Assembly (NCBI GenBank): GCA_964016885.1
Contig: OZ024761.1
Location: 30,008,001 to 30,072,000, forward strand
Reading direction: 5' to 3'
Source of the DNA: Eledone cirrhosa
Taxonomy: Eukaryota
Length of the DNA: 64,000 nucleotides
In this document: positions 1,084 through 35,024 of the stretch, piece after piece
Layout of the letters: each line of letters begins with the position of its first letter
How positions within the stretch are numbered: position 1 is the stretch's first letter
The notes under the pieces: generated by a model
Database searches by the model: none
Seen by the model: only the letters and a program-made list of their open reading frames with translations
Told to the model about the DNA's origin: nothing
Program-made: the position numbers and the translations under genes

Positions 1084-1369
1084 TAAGGAGACATGATATG
1101 AAGCTTAAAAAACACTTGTGAGTAGTGAAATTTTAAATCATCATATGATATGTTGATTTAAAACTTCACTATTCACAAGTGTTTTTAAGCTTCATATCAT
1201 GTCTGCCTGCTTTTGACAACCACTCATTATCAAATACACATACATATATACACACACTCATAGACTCAATATTAAGATATTAAGATAGTAGAAAGACCAT
1301 GTACATCCATAAAAAACACTTATTATCAATGCATACCCTTTTCAAAGACCTCCCTGTATAGATAATAAA

Positions 1370-1738
1370 TGTATAATCTGTAAATTAAGCCTACATATTA
1401 ACTGTAAAACTAGAAATGTAGTGTATAGCATAAGATGTACTGAAGGACAATGTAGAGATAAGAATATAGTGTACATAGGTGAGACAGCTCGTAGTATAGG
1501 GGAACGGATAAATGAACACTGGCGACAGCTTCAAGATAGTAAAGAATCATCTCTACTCCACCAACATGCTAAAATAGAATATAAGGCTAAATTAGAGAAC
1601 ATAGAAATAAAAATAGAATCTACACACAGAAAAGACGCAATGTTTAGACAAATCACAGAAGCAATAAACATAAATGAACTCCAACCAAAATTAAATAGAA
1701 AACATGAATGGAACAGCAACATCACAACTTACAATTAA
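1370..1738 (+). mobile_element. Penelope-like element remnant, C-terminal GIY-YIG endonuclease
   Basis: Translation CIIC..NCKTRNVVYSIRC...VYIGETARSIGERINEH...FRQITEAININELQPKLN matches the PLE GIY-YIG pattern. No RT domain upstream (5'-truncated). Followed by a pLTR-like tail that ends in (TA)n at ~2128. Confidence 0.85.
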
Positions 1739-16739: not shown

Positions 16740-20000
<3,261 letters not shown>

Positions 20001-20195
20001 TACAGTGAAATGAAGCTATCGAAGAATGAATCTTTTTCCAGGGCAGCCATGTTTAAGGAATGAGAGAAGGGGTAAGATGGGTAGCAAGTATGAAGTCATG
20101 GGTGTATGAAATGTAGGACAGGGTTTGGCAGGGTGAAGTGAGGGTAACAAGAGTTGGAAGTAAGTGATCAGTGATAATGACGATAATTACAATAA

Positions 20196-20679
20196 CAGGC
20201 TGTCCCCCCAAAATTTGACCTCCTTTTGTAGTCTAATAACATACTCGCCCAAATGATCCCAAAGCATAACAAAATGTGTAAAAACTAACCATGTTTATAA
20301 GGTTAAAGGTTTTCTTTCTACCAGGGAGATGGCTCTGGTGCACCAGTGATAAAGACTATATGCTGTTGAAATGGCCATCGCGTTCACCTGACTTGACGCC
20401 TTGTGAATTTTTTTCTATGGGCCAAGAGGAACTGAAGCAGAGAATCACTGAGGCACTGGAGACTGTTATGCAAGATAAGCTACAGCATGTTTGGCAGGAG
20501 CTGGACTACCAGCTTGACACGTGTCGTGTCTCAGGCAGTGAGCATGTTGAACATTTGTGATGCTTTGTGAAATCGGTTATAAAATCTACAGCCCTCAGAA
20601 TTTCTTGTTTGAATTTTGATAAATAAAGCCTTGGAGTTATTCACATCTCAAATGATGTCAATTTTTAGGGGACACCCTG
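20196..20679 (+). mobile_element. internally deleted Tc1/mariner element
   Basis: TIRs CAGGCTGTCCCCCCAAAATTTGAC / GTCAATTTTTAGGGGACACCCTG+TA. Internal WPSRSPDLTP..ELKQRITEA..GSEHVEHL is the transposase C-terminus. Confidence 0.85.
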
Positions 20680-21155
20680 TATATAAATCCTTTTTTAGGT
20701 GAAACACGTGTCCTCAAGTATGGTTTGTTAATTGTGGAATTAACTCTCTATATAGAAATGACTTTTACAGGACTAGAAGTATTTCATTCATACAAATAAA
20801 ACATTTCCAGCCCTGTAGAAGTCATTTCTATATATAAATAAGATGCATATACTCTACAAATGTATTGAGTACCTTTTTTAATTGTGGTTACCCCCTGATA
20901 CCACTCTGGAACCTATATATATATATATATATACATTGTTATCATTTAATGTCTGTTTTCCCTGCTAGCAAGGGTAGGATGATATATATATATATATTAA
21001 CATCATCATTTAACATCCCTTTTCCCTGATATATTGAATTTGTACTGAAGACTTGGTCTTTGGACTGAACAGAATTGGTCAAGATCTCTCAATATCCACT
21101 GGCCCACCTCCACCCCAACCTCATTGTAAACCCCCTACAAGAAATGCCGACTGGG

Positions 21156-22119
21156 TCAAAGGATCGTTTGGTAGTTGAGGGACATGAAATATCTTCCAAA
21201 AATATGTCTAACAGTAGAGGAATCGGCATCTACGGAATAGATGTCTGTGTCTAGGCGTTCGTTTGGTTGGTTCAGGTATTGTGACCCCCGGTAATCATAG
21301 AGCCACTCCTCCAGAAACTGCTCCTTGTTCAGCTCGCAAATGTTGTGCAGCACACAGCACGCTTCGACAATGAGGGCAGCATTGTCGGTCTTGAGAATCT
21401 GCTTCTTCAAGAGACACTGCCAGCGTCCCTTCAACCGACGGAAACTGGTCTCTATCACGGAGTTGGCGTTGTCCAGTCTGTTGTTGAATGTGTGTTGCAT
21501 GACTGTCAATCTCCCACCACCACCACTACTGTTACTACTGCTACTGCTGTTACTCTCATCTTCAAAGGGAACCATAAGCCAATTCAACAAAGGGTAATGC
21601 ATATCCCCGAGCAGTACAATCGGCACTTCCTTGTCACCCATCAGCCGGTATTTGGGAACAAACAGCTTGCTCTTTCTCCCATGTTCATAAACTTTGGAAT
21701 TTGAGAACACATGTATGTTGTGTAAACGTCCCGGCCACCCTGTACTGATGCTTGTAAAGCAGAACTCATCATCTGCGACAGCTTGCAGGACTATCGATGC
21801 CCACCCACAGCTGTTGTAGTAGTCGGAGCTGTTCTCCTGTGGTGTGAGGATGGGGATATGTGTGGCATTGATGACACCCGCGCAGTTCGGGAAGCCCCAC
21901 CGACTCTCAAAGCTCTCGATCACACTCTCAAGTTGCCGGCCTCGTGGAATGTAGATGTATTTCTTACTGAGTACCTTCACTATAGACTGACACACTGATC
22001 TCAGTATTGAGTATGCACTTGATATTGCGATACCAAACATGTTCTCAGCAATCCGATAATCACAGCCTGAAGACAGGATATAGACTGTTACTGCAACCCA
22101 TTTTTCAATCGGAAGATTC
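21156..22119 (-). CDS. HARBI1/ALP1-like Harbinger-transposase-derived protein (DDE_Tnp_4 fold), exon 2 of 2
   Basis: Acceptor ttttttcAG-type site at 22121-22120; motifs GFPNCAGVINATHIPI, GWPGRLHN, LLGDMHYPL, IETSFRRLKGRWQCL, ACCVLHN; stop at 21156. Join 24335..23977,22119..21156 = 440 aa. Confidence 0.92.
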
Positions 22120-22457
22120 CTGAAAAACAAAAACAAAATAAAATTTAATATACTATTATAAACTCATATTAAGGTGTGTAGCTTAGTTCAGCAGTCGCCC
22201 TGACCACCAGGCCACACAGAAAGAATAAAACCTTATGCTGAGATGAGTCTGCATAACGGTGAGTTAGTCTCATTTATAGTAAAAAATGTAATAATTAAAT
22301 TATATAATATGCACTTTATAAATGTTTTGCTATGTGTGTGACTGACATCGAGCCCCCATCACAACCACCCCTTGGTCTGTGGAGAAATTGTCTGGTCCTT
22401 GGTGCAAAAGGTTTGGAGACGTCTGGCTTAGGGGTTAGGGCAAGGTGTTGGATTTAC

Positions 22458-23050
22458 AATAATAATTATTTCTATTTTTGGCACAAGGCCAGTAATTATC
22501 CCAGTGCATTACTGGTGCTTTATTTTATCAACCCAGTAAGGATGAAAGGCAAAGTTAACCTTGGCGGGATTTGAACTCAAACCGTAAAGGGGAGTAACTC
22601 TATGCTGCAAAGCACGGTGTCCGACCCTCTACTGATACTGCCAAATCCACCGCCCTTGGATTTACAATAATAATTGTTTCTACTTTAGGCACAAGGCCAG
22701 CAATTACCCAGTGCATTACTGGTACTTTATTTTATCGACCCCGTAAGGATGAAAGGCAAAGTCAACCTCGGCGGGATTTGAACTCAGATCGTAAAGGGAC
22801 GTAACTATGCTGGAAAGCATGGCGTAATGTCGTAGGTTCAGTTACTAGTTGTCTGTTGTGTTCTTCTTGAGCAAAACAGTTCATTTCATTTTGCTCCAGT
22901 ACACTCAACTGAAAATGAATACAAGCAGTAGCTAAGAGTTAACCCTGTGATGGACTCGCATACTGTCCAGGGGTAGAAATTTTATACTCTCAGTTGCTTA
23001 ATGCTGAGGAAACCAGGATAAGCACCAGCTTGATGAGCATTTGGACTTGG
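22458..23050. mobile_element. two main-family SINEs (-) and a CORE-like SINE (+) in the HARBI1-like intron
   Basis: Copies at ~22458-22655 (flanked by a ttggatttacaataataat direct repeat), 22666-22825 and 22826-23050. Confidence 0.8.
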
Positions 23051-23976
23051 GACAGACATTTAATGGATTTCAGTGGGTTGAAGGTAAAGAATTATTTTGT
23101 ATGGGGAACTTTATTATATTTTCAATATTTATTCTAAACATAGATACTCACAGTATAGCAAAAATACTCAGCTGTGAATTCAGGAAGTATTTGCTATAAG
23201 ACAGATGCAGCTACAGAGACGGAAATGGAATGTTAATATGTGATAACCTATTGACCTATTCAGGGGTAGTTTTATCTCACATCCGCTTCTTGCCATCATA
23301 TGGGTGCTAAATATATATATGTGTGTGTGTGTGTGTGTGTAGCTTAAGTCCCATTTTATCGTATCTTTTAAAATGAAAGTAAAACTTTGTAGACAGAATT
23401 TAGAAAAAAAATAGAAACGGAACCAACGAAATGAAATGTGCTTAGGTGCTGGGGGTATCATTGCTAATAGACCTCGAAATTAGAACATGAAAATATCTCG
23501 TTTGTCCAACTCACCAGATCATTTTACATGATCTGGCCACATATATATATATATATCATTTCCTTTTGTATGGTTCGGACGGGTCTTTCCAGCACAATGA
23601 GGTATATGTACATTTAATCCCAACCATGCAAAAGAAAATGATTATATATATATATATATGGAATCACTGACAATATATCTCATTTGAAGAAATATAAAAT
23701 TCATCGGATTCATTCTGTACATAAATGAGGGTTTGTTAGGGTTGGATAGTGTTTGTGTGTGTGTGTGTGGGGGGGGGGGGGGGGTATGTAAAATGAATCC
23801 GGTGAATCGGGCGAGAAATTTTCATTCTCTTTAAAGTATATTTATACACACACACATATATCTGTGTATATCCTTACACACACACACATATATATAATCA
23901 CACCTGTGCCTTACGTATAAAAGGTGTGTTATGCTTCATTATTTTTCTTTTACGTATAAAGGTTCTTCTTTCTTAC

Positions 23977-24335
23977 CTGGGCATATCTGTAATGGAATGT
24001 TCGATATCAGATCTAATGCAGTTACATAGATATTCGAAAGTCTGTTTAGACATTCTGAAATTCTCAATCCAGTCCTGAGAAGAGAAGGTGTTCTGTACAA
24101 TATGATCCCACCAATAAGAATAACGATCCTTCGTCCAAGAGATTCTATTAGCCGAAGGTTCCAATAACAAAGTCGGCAATAAATTAAACACGAAATACAT
24201 TCTTTGGTTCGACTGAAACCTGGAAAAGGCTCGGATTCGTCTGAAGTGTCGTTTTTTCATGTGGTAACATCTTTTGTCGGCTTCTAATCTCCTCTTTCTG
24301 ATCATAGCAAACACAAATGCCAGCAGTTCAGCCAT
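23977..24335 (-). CDS. HARBI1/ALP1-like protein, exon 1 of 2
   Basis: ATG at 24335; W..R...WWD.IV....QDWIENFRMSKQTFEYLC is the typical Harbinger N-terminal motif; donor AG|GTAAGA, phase 2, joins in frame to exon 2. Confidence 0.9.
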
Positions 24336-24339
24336 TTTG

Positions 24340-24430
24340 TATTTAAATAAAAATAAATAAATAAATAAATTTACCCGAAAACCGGATGTAAACAGCTAAT
24401 GGTTGCTACCGGGCTAAATTGTTGGGTATT
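24340..24430. promoter_or_regulatory. candidate bidirectional promoter core (ETS site, X-box half-site)
   Basis: ACCGGATGT at 24381-24389 and GTTGCTA at 24402-24408, between divergent ATGs 679 bp apart. Confidence 0.45.
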
Positions 24431-25013
24431 TTTATTTTTATTTTTGTGATTTTTCGTTCATAAACGACATCTGCATTAAATTTATTAAAACATATTTAAG
24501 TTGAGTTATTTTTTTATTCTTACAATGGCTATGTTTCGTTGTTGATACGTTGATATTGAAATGACGACAATTAATGCCAGCACTTTAGTTTCGTATTATA
24601 AATTAAAAATTACTTTCACCGCCGAAGTTAACTTTGCCTTTCATCCTTCCGGGGTCGATAGAATAAAGTACCAGTAATGCATTGGGTATTTGCTAGCCTT
24701 GTGCCAAAAGTAGAAACAATTATTATTTTTCACCTATTTTTTTCTAATGAATTTTAATATGTGTATTAATGTATCTATGTATATACATGAGTGTATATCC
24801 CCCTTTGTCACGAGACAGGCGAAATAAAGTACTCAAGAATATTACGCACAACTCGGTCCAAGAATCGAACCCGCAATATTATGATCACCAGTGCAACACC
24901 AACCACTGGATCTCACGTGATAATACAAAAATAACAATTTAAAAAAAAAAAAAGAAAGTGAAGATACGGCTTTTAATTAGTTGCTATCTTTACTTGAATA
25001 TAAACAAAAAAAA

Positions 25014-25140
25014 ATGTCGGACGAAGCTTTTCGGAAAGCTGGACTTAATATCGATGAATTGAATAACATTCGGTTATTAGATCCTGATATATTTCAACAG
25101 AGCTCTGAACTGAAGGATGCCTGCAAAGACTTTACAGATA
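25014..25140 (+). CDS. IFT20: intraflagellar transport protein 20, coding exon 1 of 4
   Basis: MSDEAFRKAGLNIDELNNIRLLDPDIFQQSSELKDACKDFTD resembles the IFT20 N-terminus; donor GTAAGT. Join 25014..25140,26982..27067,27427..27530,27955..28036 = 132 aa. Confidence 0.95.
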
Positions 25141-26649
25141 GTAAGTTTACTGTATTTGTCTGTTGATAGTTGGTAATAATATCTTTGAAAGACAGACTCT
25201 GAGAGAGAGCTAATTAGAAAGTTGTTTGTTGGTAACTAAGGAAGACAACAATGGAGTTACACAGGATAAAATCAATATATATATATATAGACAGACAAAG
25301 AAAGATATATATATAGTTTAGCTTGTTTAATATATATATATTATATGAATATATATTAACTTGGCGCTTTCGCGCTGTTACCCCACATTTCAAATAGAAA
25401 CAAACGTTATTATATAACGCTAACTCCAAACGTAACCTCTAAACCCTTACCTTGTACTCTAAACCTTACTTTAACCCCTAACTCCAACCCTATCTTTAGC
25501 CCAAACACAACATTACTCCTAACTTTACTCTAACCCCTAATTCTAGCTCTAACCTTATATAATGTTTATTTCAATTTGAAGTCAAAGTAATAACGAAGAA
25601 GTACTGAAATTTATTATAAATATTATATTGCGAATACTAAAATAGCCAATGAGTAGGGCTCTTTTGGCGGCACACACGCATATATATTCATATACACACA
25701 TCCATACAAATTTATATATGCACACACGTATAAGTATCATCATCGATTAACGTCTATCTTCCACGCTAGCATGGGTTAGACGGGAATTGTCCCACTTGAG
25801 GCAAGATTGGTCGGGTGACCGTGTCTCGCTCGTATAGGACTATCTGGCAGGTTTTCTACGGCTGGATGCCCTTCCTAACACCAACCACGTTTACAGTGTG
25901 GACTGGGAGCTTTTTACCGTGTTACATACACGACCACATTACAGCATGGACTGTGTTTTTTTGTCGACCTCATTATTTTGTACTGGATGTTGTGGTACCA
26001 ACATAACTTTACAGAGAAAGGGTGGTGTTGGTGGGAGTGGGAGGATGGAGTAGGGGTAGTGGGTTGGGGTGTATATTTGGTTAAGAGGTGCCTACTGACT
26101 AGGTTTTGTTTTGTACATAGGCAAGGCGGGTCTTCTGTATTACTGCGTGGCGCCAAAGTATATATATATATTTATACATACACACAGACATATATATATA
26201 TACTCACACACACATATAACTGAACTCGGTAGAGCTTGATCCACCGAAAGAACGTTTATGTAGTCGATTGATGTGCTTGTGCTAGAAATAGTAACCAAAT
26301 ATCCCTCAGATTACAGTCTGAGATCATGTGGCTCTGGGTTCCCTGTGATTTGTTGAACTGTTGCTTATTGCATGACAAACATTTACAAATGTAAGGAGCA
26401 ATCTACCCTTTAAGCCTAGGCCTTGTTAGCTGCCTCACTGGAAGTGCCTTCTCCACTGACCAATTCAATAACAAGTCTGCAGTAAAGGTTCTTCATCAAC
26501 AGTTTGTCTTTTCTGAGCTTGCAGGCAATACTCTATGTGGGACAGTCGTGGCTTGAGTAGTTCTGATCATAGATCTAGTATGCACCATCTTCACCGCCAC
26601 CATACACCTCCCATGTCCTAATGCACGCCACAATCCCCACCAAAGACTC

Positions 26650-30718: not shown

Positions 30719-31018
30719 CTGTGGATGATAATAATAATATTAATAAACCAAGACTATACATATGTACGCAACATTCACAGAATAGCACTAATGAGCACTG
30801 TACATATACCGAGTGCCTCAAGATTTACATATATATATACACAACATACAGACAATAGCACTAGTAGGTATTGCACATAGAGAAACTTCAGTAAAATAGA
30901 ATAATAAACCTTGACAGGACTTGAACTCAGAACATAAAGGGCTGTAACTATGTTACAAAGCTTGTCCGACGCTCAACTGATTATGCTAATCCACTGCCCT
31001 ATTATAATAATTATTTAC

Positions 31019-31275
31019 CTTGTGTGTATTGGCAAACAGGTTCTGTTCCTCTTCTGTTGAAGTGAGCAACGGGACCTGGCAACTTGGCTGCACCTCTCTC
31101 TTCTTCTTCAGAGCTGGTTCTATGATGTTAACGAGGTCCTGTACAATGTAGTAACGAGCTTCTGCCTCTAATTCCATTAACCCAACCTCTGTGTCTGGCA
31201 GTATTGTGTGGTTGTCCCGTAGGAAGTTCAAAATCGTGTCAAAATGTTTTCCACTGCGATCTATCAGGATCCAAC
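31019..31275 (-). CDS. KCTD10: KCTD10-family exon 2
   Basis: ttttcAG|GWILIDRSGKHFDTILNFLRD...EAEARYYIVQDLV...CQVPLLTSTEEEQNLFANTHK|GTAAAT. Confidence 0.95.
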
Positions 31276-31365
31276 CTGAAAAACAAAAATACAAAACCTC
31301 TTTAACTCTTTTGATACCAAACAACCTGAAACTGCTCCTGGTTTCATGGGACAAAGCTATTTTAA

Positions 31366-31560
31366 CCCTTTAGCATTTAAACTGTCAGAATTCTCTCACC
31401 TCTTTCTGTTTAAACTGGCCGTAACCGGCCACTAATACTTATGTTAAGATATTGTTCTCAACATAAATAATATCAAAATGTCAGATTCAATATTATGTGA
31501 GGTAAAGCCTTTACCATGAAAATACAACAGTATATATAGAGTAATGTAAATGCTAAAGAG
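31366..31560. mobile_element. piggyBac-type MITE, nested in an older TTAA-ended element (~31302-31758)
   Basis: TTAA-CCCTTTAGCATTTA ... TAAATGCTAAAGAG-TTAA; TIR nearly identical to that of the element at 57224. Confidence 0.8.
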
Positions 31561-31991
31561 TTAAAGTGTTTGTATTTATCTAAAACCCTTCCATTCTAAT
31601 TCAATGCAAGAACCTTTAAGTTATGTTACAAACACCAACTTAATAATGAGAAAGTTAGTTATATGACCAAATTCCTTCAAATTCTTGATTATTTAAAAAA
31701 TTACTTGAAAATCTTAGGCAGTATCTTTCATTAGAAATATGGTGATGGGAGGGTTAATGACACAGACAGTCTTTCATTAGAAATATGGTAATAAAATGAT
31801 TAACTGAAATGAATCCAGTTTGTTCCATTGTTAGTGTACATGAAAGAAGGAACAAAGTTGAGAGAATATAATAGTGTCAATATATATCAGTTACTATCAG
31901 CTAGTAGCTACTATATAAATATATATATCAGTTGATAGTTACTATACAATAGTCTATATATATATATATATCAGCTGGTAGTTACTATATA

Positions 31992-32270
31992 CAGTAGAAC
32001 CTTGGCTCACAAACTTAATATCTGAAGGCTATTTGTCACCTGAAATGTTTGTAAACCAAAACTATTTTCCCCATATGAAATGTTGAAAGAAAGACTGTGA
32101 GTGAAAGACAGATATATATCACCATAGTAGTAACTAACTACACAGCGAGTGATGCTTGTGGGCAACCATTGTTGCTGGCTTGCGCATTCATTACTCGAGA
32201 CACTGTTTGTCAACTGAGACGTTTTATGTTGGGAAAAATTGCTCATCGTTCATGAATTGAGGTTTCACTG
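31992..32270. mobile_element. pogo/Tigger-type MITE
   Basis: TA-cagtagaaccttg ... tgaggtttcactg-TA. Confidence 0.65.
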
Positions 32271-33734
32271 TATGTGTGTGTATATATATTTTGTCACATT
32301 GCCAGTCTGAAGAGCAGATTGATAATGGGGTTGGGTCCATAACTCCTATGGATGACCCTGAGCCAATCCTCTGCGAAATGCTCAACAGGTTGATACACAA
32401 TAAAAATCTAAATACATGTAAACTTCATCAGTTTTTGTAATATATATATATATATCAAGTTAGCATCAGCTGGTAGCTACTATACAGTAGTGTAAATCCT
32501 ACTTGTTCCACTGTTAGTGTACATGAAAGAGGAAAGCCAGAGTATAAAACTGACAATAAGAGGAATTCTAAGACAGCAAATTGGCGAAGTTGTTAGATTG
32601 CTAGAATGTTTTGAGGTATTTGTTTCAGCCTTCTGTGCTCTGAGTTCAAATCTCACTAAGGTTTGAATTTAGACAAGCACTGGGTAGCACAATAAAATGT
32701 ACCCAGTGCACTCTGTAAAGTGGTTGCCCATAGGAAGGACATTCTGTCATAGAAATGATGCTAAAATAGAATGCATGAGGGCATGAAAAACAGACATTAA
32801 ATGATGAAGAACTCTTTAAAATGAACAGTTTTATCACAGAACCAGAGATAGTTTCAAGCAGGTTGATATAAAACATGTTAAAACACAGAAAACCTCTCAT
32901 AAAATGCACTTCCTTATAGGAGGTCATCTTGGCTAAAGCTGGTCACGTGTGAGCCATAACTACACAGGTGACTCAAATGAACAGGTACAATATAGGAAGC
33001 CAGTTTGGTGAAAACTGGTCAGGTGTGAGCCATAACGACACAGGTGACTCAAGTGAACAGGTACAATGGTCTGACTGATTACAGGTGTGTAAGTGGTGGT
33101 GGTGAGACAAGCTTAGGTGTCAGCTGTGGGCTGTAAGGTATGCTAATAGATAGAGAGAGAGATTAATTGGGAGGGAGGGGGCAGTTAGAGTGAGTCACAA
33201 TTAAGTTTAGACTCTTGTTAGAGAGGGACAGGGCAAAGGTGAAAGAGATCAAGAAGGTAAGAAAGTGTGAATGAAAGAAAAAGAAACGAGGAGGGTAAGA
33301 GTGAGAATGATAGGTGGGGTGGGTGTGAAAGATAGTTGAGGGAGGGGTATGAGAGAAGGATAACGTTAAGTTGAGATGAACAATTACAAGTTCAAATCCT
33401 GCCATGAGCACTTGTTTTAGTGCCAGGTCACACCTGATCATGTTAAAATCTGTTCCAACCCCAGATACTCATCAGTCTGGTCCTAACCCTGGTTTCCTCA
33501 GTGTTAAGTGACAAAAAGTACAACACCCCAGTATTGGATGCCAGTCCATCACAGGGGTTAACCAAGAGCTATTGCTGGTACTCATTTTCAGCTAAGTGTA
33601 TTGGAGCAACATGAAATGAAGTGTTTTGTTCAAGAACACAACAGACCACTTGGTCCAGGAATCAAACCCATGACATTATGTTCCTCAGTTCAACACCCTA
33701 ACCATCATCTTTTCCGCTAATTCCTTCCATAATC

Positions 33735-34200
33735 ATACTCATCACTCCTCTCCCCCAGTCACTTTCATCGTTCCTCAACACATAACCCAGCCATCTCACT
33801 CCATTTCTCTTCACAACATTCACCATTTTTTATTCCTCTCACTCAGTCACTTTCATTCTTTCTCAACATATGATCCAGCCATCTCCATTTCTCTTCACAA
33901 CATTCATCACAGGCTCTATTCCTCTTACTTTGTTACTTTCATTCTTCCTCAACACATGACCCAGCTATCTCACTCCATTTCTCTTCACAATTATTACCGG
34001 TTCTATTCCCATCACTCCTCTCACCCAGTCACTTTTATCCTTCCTCAACACATGACCCAGCTATCTCACTCCATTTCTCTTCACTGGTTCTATTCCCAAC
34101 ACTCCTCTCACCCAGTCACTTTCATCCTTCCTCAACACATGACCCAGCCAACTCACTCCATTTCTCTTCACAACAATTATCACTGGTTCTATACCCATTC
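33735..34200 (-). repeat. tandem ~60-80-bp minisatellite derived from an RTE LINE ORF fragment
   Basis: Unit cccagtcactttcatccttcctcaacacatgacccagctatctcactccatttctcttcac; the minus strand reads like R.LGHVLRKDESDWV. Confidence 0.65.
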
Positions 34201-34282
34201 CCACCATCCACTGCAATTCATTCATAAGTGATTAAAGAAAGACGTCAACACCAACAACAACAGTAGCAATAACAATAGTTAC

Positions 34283-34451
34283 CATCAGAGTCTGTAAGAA
34301 CTTCCATTCTGCCAGAGAACATAGCCCGTAGCATCGTATCATGTTTGGTTAGTGTTTCTATTGTGGTCAGAAATAATTTACCTCCGACATTCAGCTTCAC
34401 GTATTTTGAGCTGTTTGTCTTTTGTATAACAGTCTTGTGTTCCCCCGACAT
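34283..34451 (-). CDS. KCTD10: KCTD10-family coding exon 1 (BTB N-terminus)
   Basis: [48 protein letters not shown]|GTAACT. Join 34451..34283,31275..31019,30718..30666,30111..29913,29203..29021 = 286 aa; probably co-orthologous to KCTD10/KCTD13/TNFAIP1. Confidence 0.95.
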
Positions 34452-35024
34452 GGATATACAGCGATGCCTGCTGGCTGACCAACTGGTTGTCCAACTTACT
34501 AGCTGCTTGTTTATCCAACTGACTGACTTTGTTTGTTTGTTTGTTTGACCAACTGGCTAGCTAGCTCTTTAGTTACATGTGTTACTTACTGGTAATGAAT
34601 ACTGTTAGTGATTGGTCGGAATACTGAGTAGAGTTGTAGGGTGTGGGATGGATGTTTGGCGGATAGAAAAAATATGGAAGGGACTGAAGAAATATCACAA
34701 AAATAAAAACCTAACAGTAACAATAACAACTTGTGTGAGTTTTAATGCTCACAGTATGAAGGATGGTTTTTGTGTTTTATACCGCAATATATAACAGAAA
34801 ACTATTTAATATACAAGAATATTAATTCTATTAACATCAGTGTATATGATAAAATTTAATTTAAATAATTAACTTATTTAAATTATTTTAAAAAAGGTTT
34901 AATTTATTCTTAAATAAGTAATATTAAAAATTTTTAAATGAAATTAATATCTGTTGTTTTGGGCACTGCCAGTGGATGGTAAAGGGGTGGAAAAGTAGGT
35001 TGTGGTGGAGAGGGAGACCAACAA

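What the first reader, a model, noticed from the sequence alone, without database searches (positions are those of the whole stretch)
21156..24335. Domesticated, probably nuclease-dead Harbinger transposase gene
Seen: an intact 440-codon two-exon gene with a canonical 1.86-kb intron that has accumulated SINEs while the exons stayed clean. I see no TIRs, no TAA/TTA-flanked ends and no Myb/SANT partner ORF nearby. Two normally invariant acidic residues are Asn (IDGTH>INATH; GS.HD>GRLHN), while GD..Y and IE..F are kept, and there is a Ser/Gly loop insertion. Known: HARBI1 (vertebrates) and ALP1/HDP1 (plants) are domesticated Harbinger transposases, and the plant proteins act in chromatin complexes. 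Inference: an independent lineage-specific domestication serving as a scaffold or chromatin factor.
Basis: partly seen in the sequence, partly recalled or inferred. Interest (0 to 1): 0.75.

Follow-up and report, generated by a model that had tools for sequence, protein, structure and literature searches.

The report
Octopus tamed transposase and likely partner
Octopuses keep a single-copy, spliced gene made from a jumping gene's cutting enzyme that has lost key cutting residues, and it likely works as a binding partner of a second tamed gene of matching type, whose two alternative DNA-binding heads would steer the pair to different DNA sites.

Summary
In detail: a 440-codon, two-exon Harbinger (DDE_Tnp_4) gene whose 1,857-nt intron is skipped exactly by one contig of a public run. 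It is single-copy. Orthologues exist in Octopus bimaculoides, O. sinensis and, in two fragments, Argonauta. Its substitutions are more conservative than neutral. The first triad Asp is Asn, and 7 of 12 conserved charged sites are lost against 4 of 43 others, so the fold is kept but cutting is likely gone. New here: a conserved Myb/SANT gene on another contig matches the partner type carried by the nearest Harbinger elements (18 of 18 loci concordant). It has two alternative DNA-binding first exons on one shared tail. All 4 DDE_Tnp_4 matches in this genome are stop-free and degenerate. Binding, chromatin role, dN/dS and synteny are untested. An independent origin is likely but not shown, because the trees are unresolved.

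The parts
23977..24335 (-). Coding exon 1 (residues 1-120): long N-terminal helix and start of the helical domain
   Evidence: single copy as DNA
24156..24335 (-). Residues 1-60, the most conserved stretch among octopods; likely partner-binding helix
   Evidence: 54/60 identical to Argonauta against 196/262 elsewhere (p 0.01), 14/57 to a close intact transposase; one helix, residues 2-57
22120..23976 (-). GT-AG intron, 1,857 nt, phase 2
   Evidence: skipped exactly by contig 20 of run X3
22447..22620 (.). High-copy interspersed repeat, copy 1 in the intron
22655..22825 (.). High-copy interspersed repeat, copy 2 in the intron; 18 BLAST pieces in the window, self included
21156..22119 (-). Coding exon 2 (residues 121-440): helix-turn-helix region and RNase H-like DDE domain
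21867..21869 (-). N204: first triad Asp changed to Asn (Gly in Argonauta)
21717..21719 (-). N254: conserved accessory Asp of the GS.HD motif changed to Asn
21603..21605 (-). D292: second triad Asp, kept
21450..21452 (-). E343: triad Glu, kept (Asp in the Argonauta fragment)
21510..21563 (-). Ser/Gly loop insertion, length-variable in frame
24619..24727 (.). Inverted copy of the same repeat upstream; it explains the long inverted-repeat hit, and one arm lies inside the intron, so it is not a TIR
25014..25140 (+). First coding exon of IFT20, head to head, 678 nt between start codons

Best explanation
This is a single-copy, spliced, octopod-conserved host gene derived from a Harbinger transposase that has likely lost DNA cutting and likely works as the protein-binding half of a pair with a tamed Myb/SANT protein encoded on contig C24. 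Shown: gene model, splicing in one run, single copy, orthologues, conservative substitutions, loss of the first triad Asp and five conserved basic residues, and a predicted intact DDE fold. Also shown: the C24 gene is the Myb type found beside the nearest Harbinger transposases and has two alternative Myb first exons on one shared tail. Inferred from Ping, HDP1/HDP2 and HARBI1/NAIF1: the transposase's N-terminal part binds the Myb protein's C-terminal helix, which brings it into the nucleus and onto DNA. Inferred more weakly, from the plant complexes: the dead transposase then bridges to a chromatin or transcription complex, and the choice of Myb exon changes the target sites. Odds by step: domesticated 0.92; nuclease-dead 0.85; binds the C24 Myb protein 0.55; chromatin or transcription role 0.45.
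For: Single copy: 3 matches to exon 2, the other two at 34% and 29%; an intact transposase query found only the same loci. Splicing. Orthologues at 401/437 and 394/436 identity; Argonauta 173/210 and 77/112. The 29 substitutions against O. bimaculoides outside the loop have mean BLOSUM62 +0.79, against -0.38 to -0.50 (sd 0.3) in neutral simulation, reached in 0 of 3000 runs for each of three settings. Of 55 columns conserved in 60 intact transposases, 11 differ: 7 of 12 charged, 4 of 43 others, p 0.0009. Model of the O. bimaculoides orthologue: pLDDT 89; best matches piggyBac Z 9.8 (rmsd 4.9, 244 aligned) and Tn5 Z 9.1 (rmsd 5.9, 263 aligned). Partner type: 18 of 80 metagenome loci had a Myb match. 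In all 8 whose transposase is nearer this gene, the Myb is nearer the C24 exons; in all 10 nearer the other two octopus genes, it is nearer the C6/C17 Mybs. The Myb ORF beside the closest transposase (L037) hits the two C24 exons best in the genome and aligns with the Octopus protein over 237 residues. Literature passages: the N-terminal transposase part binds the C-terminal Myb part in HDP1/HDP2 (PMC5339849) and Ping (PMC7282668); the Myb protein imports the transposase (PMC9392472).
Against: There is no test of binding, localisation or nuclease activity. The two genes are on different contigs, whereas insect co-domesticated pairs mostly lie side by side (PMC9710019, passages); that paper also reports transposase-only domestications. 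The 18 loci fall into two subfamilies with near-duplicates, so the match is a classification, not 18 independent tests. It says 'same type', not 'same element'. The excess conservation of residues 1-60 is significant against Argonauta but not against O. bimaculoides (p 0.2). D292 and E343 are kept in Octopus. The Argonauta orthologue is in two gene models with the middle missing and a low-complexity end, which may be annotation error or decay. Expression rests on one run of unrecorded kind. For ALP1, neither half alone bound ALP2 (PMC7282668), so the N-terminal interface is not universal.
Confidence: 0.52

Rival explanations
1. The gene is domesticated and dead but works without the C24 Myb protein, with another Myb/SANT protein or an unrelated host protein.
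For: The genome holds many Myb/SANT matches: 9 to PF13837, 6 to PF13873, 4 to PF10545. Transposase-only domestications are reported in insects (PMC9710019). HDP1 binds IDM1 directly (PMC5339849).
Against: Only the C24 gene matches the partner type of this transposase subfamily. Its tail is about 92% identical between this genome and O. bimaculoides over 76 residues.
Confidence: 0.25
2. It is the octopod member of an older gene shared with other animals (amphibian, bird or HARBI1-type), not a separate domestication.
For: The same subfamily holds many full-length degenerate proteins: caecilian, frog, birds (103-member cluster), fish, dogwhelk, crinoid. The bird protein loses the same charged sites, including D254N and R354Q. 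AU did not reject union with the amphibian, bird, plant or HARBI1-type rows.
Against: No protein between 46% and 79% identity among the best 150 representatives. Fish P0021 has an intact transposase as sister (100/99); Nucella groups with P0147 (99/98), which keeps all four acids. HARBI1-type rows are cut off by a 100/100 branch. HARBI1 is reported only in jawed vertebrates (PMC9392472). Across 126 representatives, a broken triad goes with loss of the basic sites (2.2 against 4.1 of 5 kept), so shared losses may be convergent.
Confidence: 0.1
3. It keeps some nuclease or DNA-end-binding activity.
For: The fold, D292, E343, H207, H253 and the LKGR motif are kept.
Against: The first Asp is Asn in Octopus and Gly in Argonauta, E343 is Asp in Argonauta, and five basic residues are lost. 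One triad change cut Ping excision about 150-fold (PMC2836001, passage; which Asp was not checked).
Confidence: 0.08
4. It is a fossil transposon copy, transcribed from the IFT20 promoter region, with no selected function.
For: It lies head to head with IFT20, 678 nt apart; the Argonauta copy is fragmented.
Against: Open frame in three octopodid genomes with in-frame indels only; conservative substitutions, 0 of 3000; 90% identity with Argonauta over residues 1-60.
Confidence: 0.04

Closest known systems
Arabidopsis HDP1/HDP2 (PMC5339849, passages) and ALP1/ALP2 (PMC4671723, PMC7282668, passages)
   Same: Harbinger transposase-derived host gene with a broken triad; a Myb-derived partner is present in the genome; binding runs through the partner's C-terminal part.
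   Different: Plant complexes (IDM acetyltransferase, PRC2) are shown by experiment, while nothing is shown here. The residues lost differ (ALP1 is DGA; this is N-D-E). The octopus candidate partner has two alternative Myb exons.
Vertebrate HARBI1/NAIF1 (as described in PMC9392472 and PMC9710019, passages; Sinzelle 2008 not held)
   Same: Animal transposase-derived gene with a separately encoded Myb-like partner that imports it to the nucleus.
   Different: Reported only in jawed vertebrates. Invertebrate rows auto-named HARBI1 sit in another transposase subfamily. True vertebrate HARBI1 was not in my set.
Insect DPLG/APLG/LPLG/BPLG genes with MADF partners (PMC9710019, first of 6 parts and passages)
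   Same: Lineage-limited, single-copy, often two-exon Harbinger-derived genes without TIRs.
   Different: Partners there are MADF genes, usually adjacent. Here the candidate is a trihelix-type Myb (PF13837) on another contig. dN/dS and synteny were shown there, not here.
Undescribed degenerate relatives in the same subfamily: caecilian XP_030042759, bird XP_041321230 cluster, fish XP_076026160, Nucella KAL8607070
   Same: Full-length, triad or accessory acids lost, basic sites often lost.
   Different: 33-40% identical to the octopod protein, no nearer than intact transposases; common origin rejected for fish and Nucella, undecided for amphibian and bird.

Membership tests
PIF/Harbinger transposase-derived protein | DDE_Tnp_4 domain and RNase H-like transposase fold | tested here: met
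   Pfam E 5e-29; model and fold search; Atlas hits
Active Harbinger transposon | Intact DDE triad | tested here: not met
   N204
Active Harbinger transposon | Adjacent Myb/SANT ORF | tested here: not met
   No PF13837, PF13873 or PF10545 match near C22:30.03 Mb (only the best candidates are scored)
Active Harbinger transposon | TIRs with TWA target duplication | tested here: inconclusive
   None credible, but the scan found a TIR in only 1 of 13 control loci
Active Harbinger transposon | Several related copies | tested here: not met
   One copy by protein and DNA search; counts are lower bounds
Domesticated transposase gene | Intact orthologues in related species | tested here: met
   O. bimaculoides and O. 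sinensis full length; Argonauta in two fragments
Domesticated transposase gene | Purifying selection (dN/dS below 1) | tested here: inconclusive
   No orthologous DNA; a protein-level proxy supports constraint, 0 of 3000
Domesticated transposase gene | Conserved synteny | not testable with these tools
   No related genomes held
Domesticated transposase gene | Transcribed and spliced | tested here: met
   One contig in one run, kind not on record
HARBI1 orthologue | Groups with vertebrate HARBI1 | tested here: inconclusive
   Only auto-named invertebrate proxies; separated by 100/100, AU p 0.055
Co-domesticated transposase/Myb pair | A cognate-type Myb host gene exists | tested here: met
Co-domesticated transposase/Myb pair | The two proteins bind | not tested
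   No complex prediction was obtained; no experiment
Co-domesticated transposase/Myb pair | Part of a chromatin complex | not testable with these tools
   Needs proteomics

The most novel reading that the evidence does not exclude
Octopods lost active Harbinger elements but kept a toolkit made of them: several dead transposases, each paired with a Myb protein of its own subfamily. This one is retargeted by alternative splicing, because its Myb partner swaps between two DNA-binding heads on one transposase-binding tail. That would be a switchable chromatin-targeting module, and one case of a much wider, undescribed wave of dead Harbinger genes across animals.
Probability: 0.3. Interest if true: 0.75.

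Novelty: new member of a known kind. Interest (0 to 1): 0.52.

Why it matters
Harbinger proteins have been tamed again and again, but their function is known mainly in plants. This gene extends the pattern to molluscs, as far as my searches show. It gives a test of the co-domestication model where the two genes are unlinked, and it names a specific candidate partner with two alternative DNA-binding exons. The pattern of loss (charged active-site residues gone, fold and N-terminal helix kept) points to the surfaces that matter in these proteins, and it recurs in undescribed bird, amphibian, fish and snail genes.

Tried and rejected
PDB sequence search: no match at E up to 1. Foldseek: nothing at E up to 0.001, weak transposase and integrase rows only; no Harbinger structure was listed, which excludes nothing. 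Run search: no RNA holder listed; the three runs come from one study. Expression of the Myb gene was not obtained. The 109-nt inverted repeat was rejected as a TIR: it is a dispersed repeat with one arm in the intron. An alternative acceptor giving 451 aa was rejected: the X3 contig and the orthologues use the 440-aa form. My first idea that L010 and L011 are two genes was dropped: Octopus isoforms join either exon to the same downstream exons. A sister relation to P0002/P0004/P0005 appeared in the quick tree (93), was unsupported in the careful tree (94/41) and was absent with more rows, so I do not claim it. The weak cluster of long branches (93/81) may be an artefact. Trees used LG+G4 without the mixture model (except), on 44 of 92 rows and 63 rows picked from both searches; L007 was left out. 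No squid, cuttlefish or nautilus orthologue appeared, but such proteins could be missing from the databases or hidden in a 50% cluster, so absence is not shown. ARAGORN found no tRNA in 20000-26000. Paper searches; listings only, except the passages cited. None listed this gene. Supplements were not read and could list it; most subscription journals are not held. Three papers were not held (two of these look-ups were for the same paper).

Full report
Observation. The gene is real as described. Exon 1 (24335-23977) and exon 2 (22119-21156) on the minus strand give 440 codons across a 1,857-nt GT-AG intron. Exon 2 matches Pfam DDE_Tnp_4 at E 5e-29. A 556-nt contig of run X3 joins the two exons exactly at this junction, while a contig of run X1 continues into the intron. 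The kind of X3 is not on record and it is one sample. The intron holds two copies of a very high-copy repeat, and a third, inverted copy lies upstream. A scan for TWA-flanked TIRs gave one 11-nt pair, but found a TIR in only 1 of 13 control loci, so the absence is weak evidence. The gene lies head to head with IFT20, 678 nt between start codons.

Copy number and conservation. In the 3.0-Gb genome, exon 2 matches itself and two distant loci (34% and 29%). An intact transposase, a HARBI1-type protein and exon 1 DNA found nothing more; these counts are lower bounds. Orthologues are O. bimaculoides XP_014775530 (401/437 identical), O. sinensis XP_029651090 (394/436) and two Argonauta hians fragments, GAB1608209 and GAB1608207 (173/210 and 77/112). 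The window is therefore likely from an octopod. Among the best 150 of 1.84 billion representatives, the Argonauta fragment is first at 79%; the other rows are at most 46% identical. dN/dS could not be computed. As a proxy, the 29 differences from O. bimaculoides outside the loop are far more conservative than simulated neutral change (0 of 3000 runs in each of three settings).

Active site. The model of the O. bimaculoides orthologue (pLDDT 89) puts N204 on the first core strand, D292 just after a later strand and E343 on the long helix. These are the usual triad positions; the assignment is partly recalled. The triad is thus N-D-E, and N254 is a further conserved acid. Argonauta has Gly at 204 and Asp at 343. 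Of 55 columns conserved in at least 75% of 60 intact transposases, 11 differ: D204, D254, R223, K224, R256, R339, R354 and four small residues. That is 7 of 12 charged against 4 of 43 other columns (p 0.0009). The fold matches piggyBac and Tn5 transposases (Z 9.8 and 9.1). The N-terminal 60 residues form one long helix and are 54/60 identical to Argonauta, against 196/262 elsewhere, but only 14/57 to a close intact transposase. Against O. bimaculoides this excess is not significant. The protein looks like a kept scaffold with a stripped active site.

A candidate partner. No Myb/SANT match lies near the gene, but several lie elsewhere. I fetched 80 metagenome loci with related transposases; 18 had a Myb match. 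In the 8 whose transposase is nearer this gene, the Myb is nearer two exons on C24. In the 10 nearer the other two octopus genes, it is nearer Mybs on C6 and C17. Six of those 10 are near-duplicates in two groups, and the loci form two subfamilies, so this is a type assignment. The Myb ORF next to the closest transposase finds the two C24 exons best in the whole genome. These exons, 35 kb apart, are alternative first coding exons of one gene: Octopus isoforms XP_014773862 and XP_014773864 join either to the same downstream exons, in O. bimaculoides, O. sinensis and O. vulgaris records. In this genome both end in AG before a GT donor, in the same phase as the shared acceptor. The shared tail aligns with the transposon ORFs' C-terminal charged stretch. 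Neither binding nor expression of this gene was tested.

Origin. The four octopod rows form one clade (100/100) on a long stem, inside a subfamily separated by 100/100 from HARBI1-type rows and from the other two octopus genes. Its place within the subfamily is unresolved. That subfamily holds many other degenerate full-length proteins, from caecilian, frog, birds, fish, dogwhelk and crinoid. AU tests rejected union with the other octopus genes, the fish gene and the dogwhelk gene (p 1.6e-5, 0.031, 0.040). They did not reject union with HARBI1-type, bird, plant or amphibian rows (0.055, 0.136, 0.39, 0.42). Loss of the basic sites goes with loss of the triad across 126 representatives, so shared losses may be convergent. 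A separate domestication before the split of argonauts and octopodids is the likeliest reading, not a proven one.

Mechanism. In Harbinger elements the Myb protein binds the transposase's N-terminal end, imports it and brings it to DNA (PMC9392472, passage). The N-terminal transposase and C-terminal Myb parts mediate this in HDP1/HDP2 and Ping (PMC5339849, PMC7282668, passages). Both matching parts are strongly conserved here. I infer that the octopod protein binds the C24 Myb tail, and that the pair recruits a chromatin or transcription complex to sites chosen by either Myb head. The first step is about even odds; the second rests on analogy with plants.

Comparison and verdict. It works like ALP1/HDP1 and the insect PIF-like genes, and it fails the tests for an active element. 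HARBI1 orthology is unlikely but was tested only with proxies. Searches listed no paper on this gene or on a mollusc Harbinger domestication. PMC10027918 covers other transposon-derived octopus factors (passages read). The scan had no look-alike, but two notes describe other genes in this genome with swappable transposon-derived heads, which I did not check. It is a real, new member of a known and recurrent kind, with a specific, testable partner. Interest 0.52.

Noticed in passing
L027:6517-6742 and L031:1172-1400 (G000:C24, about 25.93 and 25.96 Mb), shared exons in L031 and L032: Harbinger-type Myb/SANT host gene with two alternative DNA-binding first exons on one shared tail, also in O. 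bimaculoides, O. sinensis and O. vulgaris records.
   Followed up: partly
L002 (G000:C6:26.42 Mb) with an upstream exon at L033:6447-6914: A second stop-free Harbinger-derived gene, apparently two exons, with all three triad residues lost (A-A-Q). Orthologues not sought.
   Followed up: partly
L003 (G000:C2:80.36 Mb): A third stop-free Harbinger-derived frame, with the triad Glu lost, from another subfamily.
   Followed up: partly
L007 (G000:C6:20.47 Mb): A stop-free 423-aa frame with a degenerate DDE_Tnp_4 domain behind what looks like a THAP domain (THAP recognised by eye, not scanned).
   Followed up: no
L008, L009 (C6), L012 (C17); L017-L022: Further long-frame Myb/SANT genes. L008 and L009 match the partner type of L002/L003-like elements; six PF13873 genes were not examined.
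   Followed up: partly
P0148 cluster (birds), P0135 and P0140 (amphibians), P0021 and P0149 (fish), P0136 (Nucella), P0185 (crinoid): Full-length degenerate Harbinger-derived proteins that look like further, undescribed domestications; the bird cluster has 103 members.
   Followed up: partly
window 24336-25013: Short spacer between this gene and IFT20 with an ETS-like site at 24382 and an X-box-like half site at 24402 (motifs recalled); possibly a shared promoter.
   Followed up: no
window 20749-20834: High-copy 86-nt hairpin with TA-rich ends just downstream of the gene, MITE-like.
   Followed up: no
window 30986-34556: Exons of a BTB/POZ (KCTD-like) gene on the minus strand.
   Followed up: no
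L027:4638-5315: A 226-aa frame on the minus strand next to the first Myb exon that looks by eye like a death-effector and death-domain adaptor (FADD-like; not scanned).
   Followed up: no
window 1313-1738 and 57444-57989: GIY-YIG fragment and DDE_Tnp_1_7 (piggyBac-like) fragment, likely element remnants.
   Followed up: no
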